From contig SHMW01000043.1 in assembly GCA_008080735.1 (NCBI GenBank), forward strand, positions 1 to 34,409: a stretch of DNA of 34,409 bases. Direction: 5' to 3'. Source of the stretch: Promethearchaeota archaeon. GTDB taxonomy: Archaea; Asgardarchaeota; Lokiarchaeia; Sigyniarchaeales; SOKP01. Position numbers and translations under genes: made by a program. This document shows, one piece after another, positions 12,060-28,431 of the stretch (positions within the stretch are counted from its first letter, which is position 1; the number at the start of each line of letters is the position of its first letter). The notes beneath the pieces are model-generated. The model saw only the letters and a program-made list of their open reading frames with translations. It was not told the origin of the DNA and did not search any database.

Positions 12060-13685
12060 ATGATAAAGAAAAGCTATGAACTCAAATGGACTTATGATGC
12101 TCCCGAAGCGATTTTAGCTTGTGATATAATTACCTGCCATGACAAAATATATCTTGTTTTTGGGGGACATGATCGACACCTATATATCATGAATGAAAAT
12201 AAAGAAATCATTAATTCCATGAGATTTGACGGCTGGCTTCGTTGTATCTATACAGCTGATATTGACGGAGATGGATGTGAAGAGATTCTCGCAGGAACGG
12301 GTGATGGAAATTTCCTTGTCGTAAAATATATAGAAGAAGATGCGAAAATGATTGGAGTGAAGCATTATATCACTGATGGAAAAATTCTATGCTGCACTGC
12401 TGGAGATATTACCCGAAATGGAGAATATGAACTAATTTTTGGTGGAGATAATAATAAGTTAGTTATTTTTGCTAATTTTGCCCGTGACTCTCCTCAATTC
12501 GTTCAATACTATGAATCTTGGGTGACTTCATGTACCATAGGTGTTTTGAATCCTAAATTAATAAAATCTGCTATTTTGGGTTTAGTTATAGGTACTAAAA
12601 ATGGATTATTACAGCTTATTCATATCGAAGATCAAAATCTAAAAATCTTATGGCATAGAGATTTAGACAGTAAGATAAATGATCTTTCCATAGCTGATAT
12701 TAACCATGATGGAACAAACGAAATAATAACTTGTTCTGATGATTCGAATATACGCGTTTTTAATAGTGAGGGAGTTTTATTAACTTGTCTGCATATATCT
12801 GAATCAAGACCTCTCAGCTTACTAATTGATGATATTGATGGAGATAATGCAAACGAGCTACTAATAGGGTGTGCAGATGGGAGTTTATTTGTATATCAGA
12901 ATAATCAATTAGATTCTCTGGATTTTAATCTAAAATGGTCTACAAAAATAAAATCTTCTATAGAGGATATCGCAATCATCGCAAAAAATGATCAAAGTAT
13001 TAAACAAATCATATTTGGAGGATATGATAGAACGATTCGAAATGTGGTCGATTATGAATGGGGAAAAAAGAAAAAATTAGAAATTTCCAAGCAGATTGAA
13101 CTGCAAAATGTAAGGGTTAAAGAAGAAAAGGAAGCTTTTAATAGCATCCCAACTAATTTGGAAGAATTTACACAGAATCTTTTAAAAGAAAGAATATACA
13201 TTGATCTCAATACACTTATCGCAGATTTGAAAGAGATCGGTTATAATATGAATATGATTGAAGAAAATCTCGGTGTTCTTAAAGAGGAGGGTCAATTAGT
13301 GACAAAAGAAGAAGAATTGAACGTTTGGCGTTATATTCAAAAGCCAAATGCGAGAGATATTGTAGAGGAGACAACTAAGGAAGACTCTGAGATTAAAATT
13401 AAAAATAAAATAATTAAAAAATCAGAAAGTGATCAAAAAACTGTCGCGCCTCTTAAAAAACTAATATTTGAAACACTGAAGCAAAAGGGTCCTGTTAATT
13501 CAAAAGCAAGCTTAATTGATCTGGTAGCTCAAAAAGGCTTTTCTAAGACAGAAATCCAGTCAGAACTCGATATGTTAAATAATAAAAACCTCATTACTTA
13601 TTCACGTTCCAAACCAAGGGGTTGGATCCTGAATATGAATAAACAAATAAAACAAGAATTAGATGAGAAAAAAGAACCGCGTTAA
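12060..13685 (+). CDS. FG-GAP/WD-type beta-propeller protein (BBS2/ITFG2-like blades) with C-terminal winged-helix-like repeats
   Basis: ADIDGDGCEEILAG, GDITRNGEYELIFG, ADINHDGTNEIITCSDDSNIRVF, DDIDGDNANELLIG repeats. C-terminal LIADLKEIGY...L and LIDLVAQKGF...LITYSRSKPRGW repeats. Confidence 0.8.
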   Translation: MIKKSYELKWTYDAPEAILACDIITCHDKIYLVFGGHDRHLYIMNENKEIINSMRFDGWLRCIYTADIDGDGCEEILAGTGDGNFLVVKYIEEDAKMIGVKHYITDGKILCCTAGDITRNGEYELIFGGDNNKLVIFANFARDSPQFVQYYESWVTSCTIGVLNPKLIKSAILGLVIGTKNGLLQLIHIEDQNLKILWHRDLDSKINDLSIADINHDGTNEIITCSDDSNIRVFNSEGVLLTCLHISESRPLSLLIDDIDGDNANELLIGCADGSLFVYQNNQLDSLDFNLKWSTKIKSSIEDIAIIAKNDQSIKQIIFGGYDRTIRNVVDYEWGKKKKLEISKQIELQNVRVKEEKEAFNSIPTNLEEFTQNLLKERIYIDLNTLIADLKEIGYNMNMIEENLGVLKEEGQLVTKEEELNVWRYIQKPNARDIVEETTKEDSEIKIKNKIIKKSESDQKTVAPLKKLIFETLKQKGPVNSKASLIDLVAQKGFSKTEIQSELDMLNNKNLITYSRSKPRGWILNMNKQIKQELDEKKEPR

Positions 13686-16517: not shown

Positions 16518-17209
16518 TTAAAAATGTAAAACATCCCCCACAAATAACGTTTTACTGTGTTCCGGAAATCTGCTCATGAAGTCTTCCTTATATTGAGTAC
16601 AATGGCATGGATAAATACTATCAATGTGTTCTAGTGCCCAGAATTTCCTAAACCCATGGAACCCTCCCACAATTGCTTTCAAGTTTTGTGAATATTTATG
16701 AGCATAGTCTATAATATCATCCAACCCTGGATGAGCACATCCCGTTAATAAAATTACCTCGTCATACGCAGTATGTAAAATTACCGATTGTTCCTTAATA
16801 TACGTTCCCATCTGTCCAGTGGAATAAATCCTCTTATCGATCTCGATTGAACTTCAACCCCAATCACCTCAGCTTTCTGAAACTTTCGGTTATAGGTAAT
16901 ATAATTCTCTCTTGGAACATAAATCTCGATAGAAGGATTCATCTCGTAGATTTTATCAAGTCCAATTATCTGTTCAGGATGGTTGTGAGAGATAATCACT
17001 TTATCTAAATCACTTACATCTAAACCCGCTATTTTGAAATTTTCCATTAAGGTATCTCCATCAGCTCCAGCATCGAATAAGAGATATTTATCACTTAACA
17101 AATTATAAATAAATACAGAAAAACCGAAACCACCTTTGAACTCGCTACCCTCTTTAATAGAATTATCAAATATAACTTGCAATTCAAACGACGAATTGGA
17201 TCCCACCAT
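16518..17209 (-). pseudogene. Frameshifted tandem paralog of the MBL-fold hydrolase
   Basis: N-half (16781..17209) and C-half (16518..16811) align to the neighbour. A 1-nt deficit lies within 16845-16852 (GVE..EIDKRIYSTGQMG vs GVEQAEEIEKNMITSGQIG). The metal motif is altered to SHNHPEQ. Confidence 0.8.
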
Positions 17210-25006: not shown

Positions 25007-26234
25007 CTAAATCATTTTTTCACTTCGGAATTGTTCTAATTCTTCCTTTGAATATCCTAAGAGATCAATATAAATCTCATCATTATGAGCTCCAAATACA
25101 GGTCCTGCGGATTCCACTCTACCACTAACCTCAGAGAATTTAATGAGTGGACCTGGAATAGTCGCTTTCTCAACCCCCCACTCGGAGAAATCAAAATTCT
25201 GGACTAACATTCCTCTTTCATTCAAATTTGGATGTTTATGAACTTCATTCATATGAATAACCTTTCCGCATGGAATTCGGACCTTCTCTAATTGGCGTAT
25301 GGCTTCATCTCGAGTTAAATTTTTACTCCACTTCCTAATGATCTCATCTAACTCGTCAACATGATTAAAACGCTTTATGATATTGTTAAATCTTGGATCT
25401 TCTAATAACTCGGGTTTGTTTAAAATATCGTTCATAAGCCTCTGAAATTGCTTTTCTGTTAAAGTGGTAAGAACGATCATTCCATCTTTTGTTTTATATT
25501 GATTATATACAGGTAAAAATTTTGTTCCCAATTCTAGAGTCTTTGCCATGGAGATGAATTCTCTAGCTTGGGCTCGCATATTAATCGCAAACATGAGATC
25601 ATGCATAGATATATCAATAAATTGTCCCTTTCCTGTTTTTTCTCTATGATACAACGCCTGACTGATTCCGATCGCAGCAACATGTCCCGCTGTATAATCC
25701 GCTATTGGAAGTTTTGGTGGCCCTTCTTTCAAACCTAAAGCATCTAATATTGCCGCTTCGCTTTGAATGATGATATCAAACGCGGTTTTGCTTGTATATT
25801 TCTCGAGCCCCTCATTCCCATATCCTGAAATCTTAGCATAAATTAATCTTGGATTAATTTTATTCAATTCAGGATAACCCAGCCCCCATCTCTCCATTGT
25901 ACCTTTTACAAAATTTTCAATAAGCACATCTGATTTTTTAACCAATTTTTTGAAAATGGGTTTTGTTTCTTCCTTCCGCAAGTTCAATGATATTGATTTT
26001 TTTCCTCGGTTTAAAATTGAAAAGAGTGGAAATATTGATTTATCATATACCGTGAATAATCGAAAGGCTTCACCAAAAGGAGGAGGTTATGGTAAATACG
26101 CGAACAGCGTATTAAATTTCCACCTTGATGACTTCTGCTCCTTGATCGGCAAAAAAGATGCTTGTCCACGGGCCACTAATGAACTGACTGCAGTCTAAAA
26201 CTCTTAAACCATCAAATATTTGTGGCATATTCAT
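25007..26234 (-). CDS. Family III CoA-transferase (CaiB/BaiF); exons 26234..26118 and 26086..25007, 398 aa if spliced
   Basis: Exon 1 reads MNMPQIFDGLRVLDCSQFISGPWTSIFFADQGAEVIKVE. Exon 2 reads PPPFGEAFR...NRGKKSISLNLR...DVLIENF...ISGYG...PIADYTAG (catalytic Asp)...GQFIDISM. The two are separated by a 31-nt insertion. Confidence 0.9.
26087..26117 (-). other. Putative 31-nt BHB-type intron in the CoA-transferase mRNA
   Basis: Minus-strand sequence ATTTAATACGCTGTTCGCGTATTTACCATAA: 7-bp stem AATACGC/GCGTATT, central helix GUGG/CCAU, 3-nt bulges AAA and AAC. Removal restores the frame. Confidence 0.75.
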
Positions 26235-26412
26235 AATGAGTAAATTTTGCTTTTTTGCTATAGATTTAATTCTCTTTGTTTAAATAGATTTTCTAAGCAA
26301 ATTTCCAGTTGCTTTTATGAATATTAAATCGATTGATTCTGAGAAGAAATATTTAATAGAATGAAGATCAAAATACACAATATAAAAATTCAATAAATTG
26401 TATGTGGAAAAA

Positions 26413-28431
26413 ATGAGCGAAGAACGTAAAAAATTATGGGAGCCGAGTCAAGAATGGATTGAAAACGCAAATGTGACCAAATTTATCGAGTTCGTAAATG
26501 AAAACTATGATATGAATATCAAAGGAGCAAAAGATTTATATAAATGGTCTGTGGAAAAGATACCCGATTTTTGGGCTGCTTTCTGGGATTTTGGAGACAT
26601 AATCGCATCTAGGGAGTATGATGAGGTAGTAGACGATCTTGATAAATTTCCGGGAGCGAACTGGTTTCCTGGCGCACGATTAAATTTCGCGGAGAATCTA
26701 CTAAAATATGAAGATGATCAACTCGCCTTTATCTTTCAAGGTGAAATGAAAAAAACAAAAAAAATAAGCTACAAAGAGCTTAATAATGAGGTTGCCCGTA
26801 TCGCAAAATCTCTCCGAGAGATGGGAATCAAGGCAGGTGACAGGGTAGTTTCGTATATCCCCAACTTGATTGAGACTCCAGTCGCAATGCTCGCGACGAC
26901 AAGTATCGGGGCGATCTGGGCCTCATGTGGGGCGGAACTACAAGCACGAGCAGTGATCGATCGATTTGCGCAAATTGAGCCAAGAGTACTTTTTGCCGTA
27001 GACGGATATTTTTATAAGGACAGTGTATTTAGTATTATTCCGAATGTCAAGGAAGTTGTCGATGCGATTCCCTCTATAGAAAAGGTGGTGGTCGTTTCCT
27101 ACGTTTCTGATGATAAACCGGACATTAGTAGCATTCCTAAAGCAGTTCATTGGGATGATTTTATCGCTAAAGAAGATAATCCCGAACTAACATTTGAGCA
27201 ATTGCCGTTCAGCCATCCAGTTTATATTATGTTTTCGTCGGGAACGACGGGAAAACCAAAATGTATGGTACAGAGTGGAGGGGGTGTGCTAATAAATCAT
27301 TTAAAGGAGCTAATCCTGTCCACGGATCTCAAGCGCAACGACGTTATAAATTATATCACCGCGCCTTCATGGATGATAGCTTAAGTAAACCTTAAGCTAG
27401 CCAAAATGTGGAACTGGCTGATCAGTTCCTTAGCTGTTGGCGCAACGATATTTTTATATGATGGTAATCCTCTCTATCCAGAACCCTTAAGAATGTTTGA
27501 GTTGATAGAAAAATATAGAGTTTCAATATTTGGAGTTTCGGCAACTTATATTCACTATCTAATGGGTCAAGGACTAAAACCAAAAGAAAAATATGACGTT
27601 TCATCATTAAGAGAAATCTCTCAAACGGCGAGTGCCCTCAGCCCAGAAGGATTTGAATGGTGTTACAATCAGATAAATAAAGATCTCTATTTCAATTCAA
27701 TTTCGGGGGGTACTGATATCAACGGATGTTTTGCGGGAGCTTTACCTATTCTTCCGGTATATTCTGGAGAATTGCAGGGCCCTGCATTAGCTATGAAAGT
27801 GGAAGCGTATGATGAGAGTGGAGAACCAGTAAGAGATCAGCAAGCGGAGTTAGTATGTGAGGCGCCAGCCCCGTCTATGCCAATCTATTTCTGGGGGGAT
27901 GATGAGAACATGTCGAAATATAAATCGGCTTACTTTGAATATTATGATGAATTAGGTATTAATGTTTGGCGGCATGGTGACTGGATAGTGTATCATAGTG
28001 ACACAGGAGGGATTACATTCTGGGGACGTTCTGATGCCACGCTTAAACCGTCAGGGGTTAGAATTGGAACTTCCGAAATATATAATGTGGTGGAACAACT
28101 TCCAGAGGTTGCTGATAGCTTGGCTATAGGCCATAAGGATGATCAAGGGAATGTGGAAGTTATTCTTTTCGTTGAATTAACTGGTGATGCCGAATTAAAC
28201 GATGAGCTAAGAAATAAAATTAAAACAACTCTACGTGAGAAAGCTTCACCTAGACACGTACCTGCGGTGATTAAGGAAGTACCCGAGGAGACTATACCGT
28301 ACACATTTAGTGGGAAGAAGGTAGAAATTGCCATCACGAAAATCCTTCATGGTATGGATGTATCTAATCGTGGTGCTCTAAGAAATCCTGATTCACTGGA
28401 CTTTTATAAAGAAGTTAAAGATGAACTATAA
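26413..28431 (+). CDS. Acetoacetate--CoA ligase (acetoacetyl-CoA synthetase); exons 26413..27375 and 27406..28431, 662 aa if spliced
   Basis: WFPGARLNFAENLL, YIMFSSGTTGKPKCMV (AMP-binding loop), WM|MWNWL, SISGGTDI, WRHGDW, GRSDATLKPSGVRIGT, YTFSGKKVE, ALRNPDSL. Confidence 0.92.
27376..27405 (+). other. Putative 30-nt BHB-like intron in the acetoacetate-CoA ligase mRNA
   Basis: ATAGCTTAAGTAAACCTTAAGCTAGCCAAA: perfect 9-bp stem TAGCTTAAG/CTTAAGCTA with a 5-nt loop, central helix UGGA/GCCA (one mismatch), bulges UGA and AAA. Contains an in-frame TAA; removal gives WMMWNW. Confidence 0.82.

What the first reader, a model, noticed from the sequence alone, without database searches (positions are those of the whole stretch)
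26075..26130. 31-nt BHB intron in the family III CoA-transferase, hiding a 5' exon missed by ORF calling
Seen in sequence: the ORF track starts this gene at 25987, but the canonical N-terminus (FDGLRVLDCSQFISGP...ADQGAEVIKVE) lies at 26234-26118 in another frame and is followed by ATT TAA. The minus-strand RNA parses as AG-GUGG-AA^A-UUU-AAUACGC-UGUUC-GCGUAUU-UA-CCAU-AA^C-CU: central helix GUGG/CCAU (4 bp including G.U), bulges AAA and AAC, outer pairs AG/CU and a 7-bp inner stem. Cutting after bulge position 2 removes 31 nt and yields GTG GAA|CCT CCT CCT TTT GGT (VIKVEPPPFG), matching the family VIKVEPP motif. An alternative 28-nt excision (VEIPPPFG) would also restore the frame but fits BHB geometry less well.
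Basis: partly seen in the sequence, partly recalled or inferred. Interest (0 to 1): 0.92.

Follow-up and report, generated by a model that had tools for sequence, protein, structure and literature searches.

The report
tRNA-type mini-intron in Asgard CoA-transferase mRNA
A CoA-transferase gene of an Asgard archaeon is interrupted by a 31-base insert shaped like the introns archaea cut out of tRNAs; related genomes show it is a conserved, structure-constrained intron that very probably has to be spliced out of the mRNA, which the papers I could search document inside a coding sequence for only one archaeal gene (cbf5).

Summary
The family III CoA-transferase gene (minus strand) is split into exon 1 (26234-26118), a 31-nt insert (26117-26087) and exon 2 (26086-25007). 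The insert folds with bulge-helix-bulge (BHB) geometry. Cutting after the second base of each bulge gives exactly the junction seen in intronless orthologs.

- **Orthologs:** twelve carry a 30-31-nt insert at the same codon boundary and eight lack it precisely.
- **Structure:** the stems covary, including one central-helix pair between a synonymous exon site and the intron.
- **Selection:** exon 1 is under strong purifying selection (pN/pS 0.05-0.20), so this is not a pseudogene.
- **Host:** a Promethearchaeota (Asgard, Loki-type) genome with alpha and beta splicing-endonuclease subunits, two RtcB ligases and heavily interrupted tRNA genes.
- **More cases:** the neighbouring acetoacetyl-CoA-synthetase-like gene (27376-27405), a thiolase-like gene on contig C11, RNase HII on C1 and a Rab-like GTPase gene on C1 carry the same ~30-nt architecture.

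No RNA evidence could be obtained for this locus. This scan has already reported the same phenomenon on other Asgard DNA and on other pieces of this genome. The papers I could search document coding-sequence BHB splicing only for cbf5. Verdict: a new member of a known kind, of high interest.

The parts
26118..26234 (-). Exon 1 of the family III CoA-transferase (39 codons, ATG 26234 to GAA 26118)
   Evidence: Pfam CoA_transf_3 profile positions 2-33, E 5e-10. 84-92% identical in orthologs. pN/pS 0.05-0.20 against intron-bearing orthologs.
26087..26117 (-). 31-nt BHB mini-intron with an in-frame UAA as its second codon: inner 7-bp hairpin 26113-26107/26101-26095, loop 26106-26102, central-helix 3' strand 26092-26089
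   Evidence: Sequence; fold z = -3.0. Present at the same site in 12 orthologs and precisely absent in 8. Covariation.
26120..26123 (-). Exonic 5' strand of the 4-bp central helix (GUGG), followed by the 5' bulge 26119-26117; predicted cut between 26118 and 26117
   Evidence: The third position (a synonymous Val site) is G where the intron partner is C and A where it is U: AU in 9 and GC in 2 of the 11 aligned rows. The closest relative L067, not in that alignment, also has GC. The GC state sits in two separate clades of the gene tree.
26084..26088 (-). 3' bulge (26088-26086, predicted cut between 26087 and 26086) and the outer-helix 3' strand (26085-26084)
   Evidence: Cutting after bulge position 2 gives GAA|CCU, matching intronless orthologs. 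The outer pair G-C is invariant in 11/11 and the second outer pair is kept in 6/11.
25007..26086 (-). Exon 2 of the CoA-transferase (359 codons plus stop)
   Evidence: Pfam CoA_transf_3 positions 36-366, E 3e-80. Orthologs are 67-92% identical.
26398..27375 (+). Exon 1 of the divergently transcribed acetoacetyl-CoA-synthetase-like gene (start at TTG 26398 or ATG 26413, not resolved)
   Evidence: Pfam ACAS_N plus AMP-binding positions 7-208.
27376..27405 (+). Second BHB mini-intron, 30 nt with an in-frame UAA: central helix 27370-27373 with 27400-27403 (3 bp plus an A.G mismatch), bulges 27374-27376 and 27404-27406, 9-bp stem 27377-27385/27391-27399, loop 27386-27390
   Evidence: Six orthologs have a 30-nt insert here; 17 read straight through as W-M-M-W. 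88.9% of cells paired against 27-43% when slid, with 5 pairs showing compensatory changes. RNAalifold recovers the 9-bp stem without being told.
27406..28431 (+). Exon 2 of the synthetase-like gene
   Evidence: Pfam AMP-binding positions 223-372 plus AMP-binding_C. Orthologs are 64-93% identical.

Best explanation
The 31 nt at 26117-26087 are a tRNA-type (bulge-helix-bulge) intron in the pre-mRNA of a family III CoA-transferase of an Asgard archaeon. Shown: the transcript can fold so that four exon bases pair with four intron bases, with a 3-nt bulge 3' of each strand and a hairpin on top. This fold is conserved by compensatory change. The insert is precisely present or absent among orthologs. 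Both exons stay under purifying selection. Inferred: the heterotetramer-type splicing endonuclease (catalytic alpha on contig C72, structural beta on C37) cuts after the second base of each bulge. RtcB then joins the exons to give ...VIKVE-PPPFG... and a 398-residue enzyme, and probably circularises the intron. Unspliced mRNA yields only a 40-residue peptide, because UAA is the second codon of the intron. The same applies to the 30-nt insert in the neighbouring synthetase-like gene and to at least three other genes of this genome.
For: Split and exact Pfam continuity. Same-site inserts of 30 or 31 nt in 12 orthologs of 67-92% identity from independent assemblies, and precise absence in 8 others whose junction equals the predicted spliced product. 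BHB structure: 80% of cells paired against 30-51% when slid, 8 pairs with double changes, and an exon/intron central-helix pair AU:9 GC:2. Exon 1 pN/pS 0.05-0.20 with pS 0.6-0.9. The same architecture with covariation at two unrelated genes and at RNase HII, where the cut restores the invariant Arg codon. EndA alpha keeps Tyr/His/Lys and best matches crenarchaeal heterotetramer subunits; beta lacks Tyr/His. Two RtcB genes. PMC5829648 assigns Asgard the (alpha-beta)2 EndA with the L1 loop tied to broad specificity. Only 26 tRNA genes are found by ARAGORN, 16 with introns.
Against: The motif is relaxed: the outer helix is only 2 bp (1 bp in 5 of 11 orthologs), there is an extra unpaired U next to the 5' bulge, and 4 of 11 orthologs have a G.A mismatch in the central helix. 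RNAalifold on the MAFFT alignment prefers a 3-bp exon/junction helix to the BHB central helix. BHB-like shapes that merge ORFs are no commoner than a mirror-image control genome-wide, so the shape alone proves nothing. Orthologs are related, so the covariation counts overstate the number of independent events.
Confidence: 0.88

Rival explanations
1. Translational bypassing (ribosome hopping, as in phage T4 gene 60 or the mitochondrial 'byps' of Magnusiomyces): the insert stays in the mRNA and the ribosome skips it.
For: There is a stop codon within one to three codons of the upstream boundary and a stable hairpin right after it, in the five genes of this genome that I examined.
Against: No matched take-off and landing codons. 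GAA is followed at the landing side by UAA, UAG or AAU in the CoA-transferase orthologs, and AAC/AAU by CAA/UAA in the thiolase. In the synthetase an AUG-to-AUG hop would give one Met fewer than every intronless ortholog. Bypassing does not explain covariation between an exon base and an intron base across a 4-bp helix flanked by 3-nt bulges.
Confidence: 0.04
2. Dead or split gene: a small insertion (mobile hairpin element or indel) inactivated the gene, or the enzyme is made without its first 39 residues from an internal start such as TTG 25987, as public annotations call it.
For: Annotation pipelines-350-aa N-terminally truncated products for many relatives, plus a separate 55-aa ORF in the closest one. 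66 of 120 public clusters lack the N-terminal motif.
Against: Exon 1 is conserved with pN/pS 0.05-0.20 while synonymous sites are near saturation, the same as exon 2. The insert has kept its site, size and fold across 12 lineages. There is no target-site duplication or terminal repeat beyond the hairpin. Exon 1 carries profile positions 2-33 of the CoA_transf_3 domain. By my own knowledge of the family fold, not tested here, this is the first strand-helix of the nucleotide-binding domain.
Confidence: 0.04
3. Assembly or sequencing artefact, or programmed frameshift/readthrough.
For: The window comes from a 140-contig metagenome-type assembly with 7% contamination.
Against: The insert recurs in at least 12 independent assemblies from different projects. 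Lengths of both 30 and 31 nt, each with in-frame stops, cannot be bridged by one frameshift or one readthrough.
Confidence: 0.01

Closest known systems
BHB intron in the cbf5 (pseudouridine synthase) pre-mRNA of Desulfurococcales and Sulfolobales (Watanabe 2002; Yoshinari 2006; Yokobori 2009, PMC2738675)
   Same: A small intron inside a protein-coding sequence, with an unconventional BHB at the exon-intron borders and cuts between the second and third bulge residues. It is linked to a hetero-oligomeric splicing endonuclease and is patchily gained and lost among relatives.
   Different: Different genes (CoA-transferase, acyl-CoA synthetase, thiolase, RNase HII) and a different phylum (Asgard rather than Crenarchaeota). 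There are several per genome rather than one, with a stereotyped ~30-nt layout (1+9+5+9+4+2). Splicing is shown by cDNA for cbf5 but not shown here.
BHB introns of Asgard tRNA genes (bioRxiv 10.64898/2026.10.13.758758)
   Same: Same lineage and same presumed enzyme. Introns were gained repeatedly and sit at BHB motifs. This genome's tRNA genes also look heavily interrupted.
   Different: That study covers tRNA genes only; a text search of it finds no mention of mRNA or cbf5. Here the host RNA is a translated message, so the reading frame and in-frame stops matter.
46-nt BHB intron in the 5' UTR of Haloferax volcanii HVO_1309 (PMC7714728)
   Same: An mRNA processed by the tRNA splicing endonuclease, shown by circRNA-seq and in vitro cleavage.
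   Different: It lies in an untranslated leader, not in the coding sequence, and the host has a homodimer-type enzyme that needs a strict BHB.
HAC1/XBP1 unconventional mRNA splicing (IRE1 cut, RtcB or Trl1 ligation) in eukaryotes
   Same: A very short intron (26 nt in XBP1) removed from a cytoplasmic mRNA without a spliceosome, with RtcB-type ligation and a change of reading frame. This comparison rests on my own knowledge and was not tested.
   Different: The nuclease (IRE1) and the twin stem-loop signal are unrelated to EndA and BHB, and that splicing is a regulated stress switch. No regulation is shown here.

Membership tests
Archaeal BHB (EndA-type) intron | Two 3-nt bulges on opposite strands, each 3' of its strand of a 4-bp central helix | tested here: met
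   GUGG/CCAU with bulges 26119-26117 and 26088-26086. The central helix is 90.9% paired over 11 orthologs. It is relaxed: one extra unpaired U follows the 5' bulge in the 31-nt versions.
Archaeal BHB (EndA-type) intron | Cuts after the second residue of each bulge yield the functional junction | tested here: met
   The predicted product VE|PPP equals the uninterrupted orthologs in length and register. The same holds for the synthetase (W-M|M-W), the thiolase (G-N|M-D) and RNase HII (the Arg codon is restored).
Archaeal BHB (EndA-type) intron | Flanking helices (outer exon-exon helix and inner helix) | tested here: inconclusive
   The inner helix is present and covaries (7 of 9 pairs with double changes). 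The outer helix is only 2 bp here and 1 bp in 5 of 11 orthologs, which is an hBH-like relaxed form.
Archaeal BHB (EndA-type) intron | Structure maintained by compensatory change | tested here: met
   Covariation score 0.284 against 0.148 shuffled (0/500) and 0.04-0.10 slid. A1 and A3 behave likewise.
Archaeal BHB (EndA-type) intron | Host has a splicing endonuclease able to take relaxed BHB, plus an RNA ligase | tested here: met
   Two tRNA_int_endo genes: alpha with Tyr/His/Lys and beta without Tyr/His. Two RtcB genes. I did not examine the L1 loop myself; PMC5829648 reports it for Asgard.
Archaeal BHB (EndA-type) intron | The intron is actually excised from the RNA (spliced junction, circular intron) | not testable with these tools
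The junction pattern gave 0 hits in metagenome contigs. No informative transcript contig was found.
Translational bypass element (T4 gene 60 type) | Matching take-off and landing codons flanking the gap | tested here: not met
   GAA against UAA/UAG/AAU, and AAY against CAA/UAA.
Group I / group II self-splicing intron | Ribozyme core of hundreds of nucleotides | tested here: not met
   The insert is 31 nt, and there is no Rfam family in the window at gathering thresholds.

The most novel reading that the evidence does not exclude
This intron is one of a lineage-wide population of stereotyped ~30-nt endonuclease-type introns in Asgard (Loki-type) protein-coding genes, with several to dozens per genome. 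They include housekeeping genes such as RNase HII and flip between present and absent at fixed sites among close relatives. On this reading, the closest archaeal relatives of eukaryotes routinely depend on cutting and rejoining messenger RNAs, and intron gain or loss in coding genes is an ongoing process there.
Probability: 0.6. Interest if true: 0.9.

Novelty: new member of a known kind. Interest (0 to 1): 0.75.

Why it matters
In the papers I could search, splicing of an archaeal coding sequence by the tRNA endonuclease rests on one gene family, cbf5. PMC7714728 (2020) still calls it the only such example, and PMC2738675 notes that other cases were only predicted.

- **Scope:** finding conserved, structure-constrained introns of this type in ordinary metabolic genes of Asgard archaea extends the mechanism to the lineage nearest to eukaryotes. 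It also shows several such genes per genome.
- **Evolution:** it gives a tractable system for asking how introns enter and leave coding genes. In each of three gene trees, well-supported branches force at least 2 changes of intron state, and up to 4-5 are counted.
- **Annotation:** public annotation truncates these genes. This one is called at 312 aa and its closest relative at 347 aa plus a 55-aa fragment, so gene catalogues and metabolic reconstructions of Asgard genomes are affected.

Tried and rejected
1. **Structure-only genome scans.** I scanned for BHB geometry that merges two ORFs in three versions: loose, compact-hairpin and fixed 30-nt architecture. Each gave the same counts as a mirror-image geometry control (209 vs 179 loci, 31 vs 34, 12194 vs 12192). 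The motif is too low in information in 33% GC DNA, so no census can be claimed from structure.
2. **Loop motif.** Hairpins with the recurrent AUAUC-type loop were tested for enrichment in BHB geometry. There was none (142 vs 134), so I draw no conclusion from the shared loop.
3. **RNA evidence.** A degenerate exon-exon junction pattern found nothing in metagenome contigs. A Logan contig encoding an uninterrupted VE-PPP ortholog (L066) is at most 78% identical to any intron-bearing locus, so it says nothing about splicing.
Rejected, because it adds a residue that no ortholog has.
No direct repeat flanks any of the three introns. The ATG/ATG at the synthetase junction is simply the two Met codons that are also present in intronless orthologs.
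My family search hit a locus where I did not find the described split, so it remains unverified.
7. **Paralog-collinearity scan**. It recovers only genes with paralogs: 21 split loci, of which 4 are intron-type.

Full report
**Observation.** On the minus strand an ATG at 26234 opens 39 codons that end ...ADQGAEVIKVE at 26118. ATT TAA follows, and the remainder of the enzyme (PPPFGEAFR...) continues in a different frame from 26086 to the stop at 25007-25009. Mechanical ORF calling starts the gene only at TTG 25987. Pfam CoA_transf_3 aligns positions 2-33 to the first piece and 36-366 to the second, so the two pieces are one domain separated by 31 nt.

**Geometry.** In a BHB motif each 3-nt bulge lies 3' of its strand of a 4-bp helix, and the endonuclease cuts after the second bulge residue. 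This rule is quoted in PMC2738675 and PMC5829648.
- The central helix is 26123-26120 (GUGG) pairing with 26092-26089 (CCAU).
- The bulges are 26119-26117 and 26088-26086.
- A 2-bp outer helix (26125-26124 with 26085-26084) and a 7-bp hairpin with a 5-nt loop complete it.
- The predicted cuts remove 26117-26087 and join GAA to CCU.
- The motif is slightly relaxed, with an asymmetric internal loop between the 5' bulge and the hairpin.
- The region folds better than all 200 shuffles (z = -3.0).

**Orthologs.** Relatives were fetched by the genome search, the search for related loci and the look-up of encoding contigs.
- Twelve distinct orthologs (67-92% protein identity, independent assemblies titled Promethearchaeota or Lokiarchaeota MAGs) carry an insert of 30 or 31 nt at exactly this codon boundary.
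- Eight others read straight through as VE-[S/P/V]PP-[F/Y/L]G. This fixes the boundary, confirms the 31-nt excision and excludes the 28-nt alternative.
- All inserts contain in-frame stops, and the two lengths differ in frame. No frameshift or readthrough can therefore explain them.
- On the 11-sequence alignment A2 the BHB structure has 80% of cells paired, against 30-51% when partners are slid. Eight pairs show changes on both sides, and the covariation score is 0.284 against 0.148 in shuffles (0 of 500 reach it).
- The third central-helix pair links the synonymous third base of the Val codon in exon 1 to an intron base. It is A-U in nine of the aligned sequences and G-C in two (this window and G015). 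The closest relative L067 (not in A2) also has G-C. In the gene tree this window/L067 and G015 lie in different clades.
- In L067 one change turns the U.U mismatch of this window's stem into U-A.
- Exon 1 has pN/pS 0.05-0.20 with synonymous sites near saturation, the same as exon 2, so it is still translated as part of a working protein.

**More cases.**
- The divergently transcribed neighbour, an acetoacetyl-CoA-synthetase-like gene, is broken by 30 nt at 27376-27405 with an in-frame UAA. Its parse is a 2-bp outer helix, a central helix of 3 bp plus an A.G mismatch, bulges at 27374-27376 and 27404-27406, a contiguous 9-bp stem and a 5-nt loop. The rule-based cuts give W-M|M-W.
- Six orthologs have a 30-nt insert there and 17 read TGGATG|ATGTGG. 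88.9% of cells pair, against 27-43% when slid, and five stem pairs show compensatory changes. RNAalifold recovers the stem unaided. The central helix of this intron never varies, so covariation neither supports nor contradicts it.
- A paralog-collinearity scan of the whole genome independently found a third case in a thiolase-like gene on contig C11 (intron at plus-strand 35417-35446). It has a perfect 4-bp central helix, a 9-bp stem and a 5-nt loop.
- For that thiolase intron, five orthologs have it and seven do not. 94.7% of cells pair, and one central-helix pair occurs as U-A, U.G and C-G, the C being a synonymous Gly change in the exon.
- RNase HII on C1 is split inside its invariant motif by 30 nt carrying TAA TAG. 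Its central helix is a perfect CGGG/CCCG, and the cut restores the Arg codon.
- A Rab-like GTPase on C1 (near 13386) has a 30-nt in-frame insert in its switch motif.
- In all five genes a stop codon lies within the first three codons of the insert.

**Host.** Relatives' records name Promethearchaeota, that is Asgard. The genome (4.15 Mb, 140 contigs, 93% complete) has two splicing-endonuclease paralogs.
- The 200-aa protein on C72 keeps the catalytic Tyr, His and Lys. It best matches subunits of crenarchaeal heterotetrameric enzymes.
- The 205-aa protein on C37 has Phe for Tyr and no His at the matching place.
- This fits the (alpha-beta)2 type that PMC5829648 reports for Asgard, with the L1 loop tied to broad substrate range.
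- Two RtcB genes are present.
- ARAGORN finds only 26 tRNA genes, 16 of them with introns. That is in line with the preprint on heavily interrupted Asgard tRNA genes.

**Evolution.** On gene trees built from exon 2, the intron state needs 4 changes for the CoA-transferase, 4 for the synthetase and 5 for the thiolase. At least 2 are forced by well-supported branches in each. The distant CoA-transferase orthologs of another family lack the intron. Inserts at one site resemble each other across lineages. I therefore favour an old intron with repeated precise loss, but repeated gain at the same site is not excluded.

**What chance can and cannot explain.** BHB-like shapes that would merge two ORFs are equally common in a mirror-image control. 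The shape is therefore no evidence by itself, and I give no genome-wide count from structure. The evidence lies in three things: the predicted cuts agree with homology-defined boundaries in four genes, the structure covaries, and the exons are under selection.

**Rivals.**
- Translational bypassing would need matched take-off and landing codons. These are absent in the CoA-transferase and the thiolase.
- A pseudogene or a truncated enzyme is contradicted by the selection on exon 1.
- An artefact is contradicted by recurrence in independent assemblies.

**Known and new.** PMC7714728 (2020) states that only one additional BHB intron, in cbf5 mRNA, had been reported, and adds a 5' UTR intron in Haloferax. 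PMC2738675 says that introns in other protein genes were only predicted. My searches for Asgard together with BHB or protein-coding introns found only the tRNA preprint, which does not treat mRNAs.

This scan has already reported the same phenomenon in other Asgard genomes. One of those notes claims environmental RNA support. First-reader notes also flag further candidates on other pieces of this genome. I re-derived the thiolase and RNase HII cases myself, and the rest I did not check.

**Limits.** No RNA data were available for this locus. The orthologs are related, so the covariation counts are not counts of independent events. The outer helix is weak.

Noticed in passing
G000 contig C11, plus-strand 35417-35446 (L053:2018-2047, minus strand): A 30-nt BHB intron in a thiolase-like gene (Thiolase_N / Thiolase_C_1), splitting ...LIGN|MDHF.... 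It is present in 5 orthologs and absent in 7, and its central helix covaries with a synonymous Gly site.
   Followed up: yes
G000 contig C1, 84833-84862 (L068:1524-1553, plus strand): RNase HII is split inside its invariant GIDEAG-R-GPV motif by 30 nt carrying TAA TAG. The central helix is a perfect CGGG/CCCG, and the predicted cuts restore the AGA Arg codon.
   Followed up: partly
G000 contig C1, plus strand near 13370-13430: A Rab-like GTPase has a 30-nt in-frame insert with TAA in the TIGV-DF switch motif. Both halves are collinear with 15 paralogs.
   Followed up: partly
G000 contigs C13, C42, C49 (all minus strand; rc-index 42216, 19634 and 13612) and C87 (plus strand, 5331): Four paralogs share a single in-frame TGA at the same place (...DDC[S/A/G]I-TGA-I[L/C]GP...) where an uninterrupted paralog on C19 reads one residue. 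This looks like selenocysteine in HdrA-like proteins rather than a break. Several other single in-frame TGA/TAA splits (C10, C14, C16, C2, C24, C30, C31, C3) were not examined.
   Followed up: no
L014 (G016 contig C53), about 664-1520: This relative's CoA-transferase has a stranded older copy of its N-terminal coding end (664-750). It is followed by an inserted zinc-ribbon-like ORF (879-1181), then a fresh N-terminus from ATG 1329. The fresh N-terminus itself carries a second, 32-nt BHB-type insert between the Gln and Phe codons (about 1372-1403), upstream of the shared intron. It resembles the 'replace the gene end' elements noted elsewhere in this scan.
   Followed up: partly
window 16518-17209, minus strand: A metallo-beta-lactamase-fold ORF (142 aa, Pfam positions 4-79 of 196) overlaps by 28 nt a 97-aa ORF in another frame that has no Pfam hit. 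It may be a frameshifted or otherwise interrupted gene. No good BHB was seen there.
   Followed up: no
whole genome G000: ARAGORN finds only 26 tRNA genes in a 93%-complete genome, 16 of them with anticodon-loop introns of 7-52 nt (one called at 1125 nt). This suggests many tRNA genes are too interrupted to be detected.
   Followed up: no
public protein calls for this gene family (P0001-P0120): 66 of 120 homologous clusters lack the N-terminal motif, with lengths 296-350 aa against about 396 aa intact. The closest relative is annotated as a 55-aa ORF plus a 347-aa ORF. Annotation pipelines appear to mis-call intron-bearing genes systematically.
   Followed up: partly
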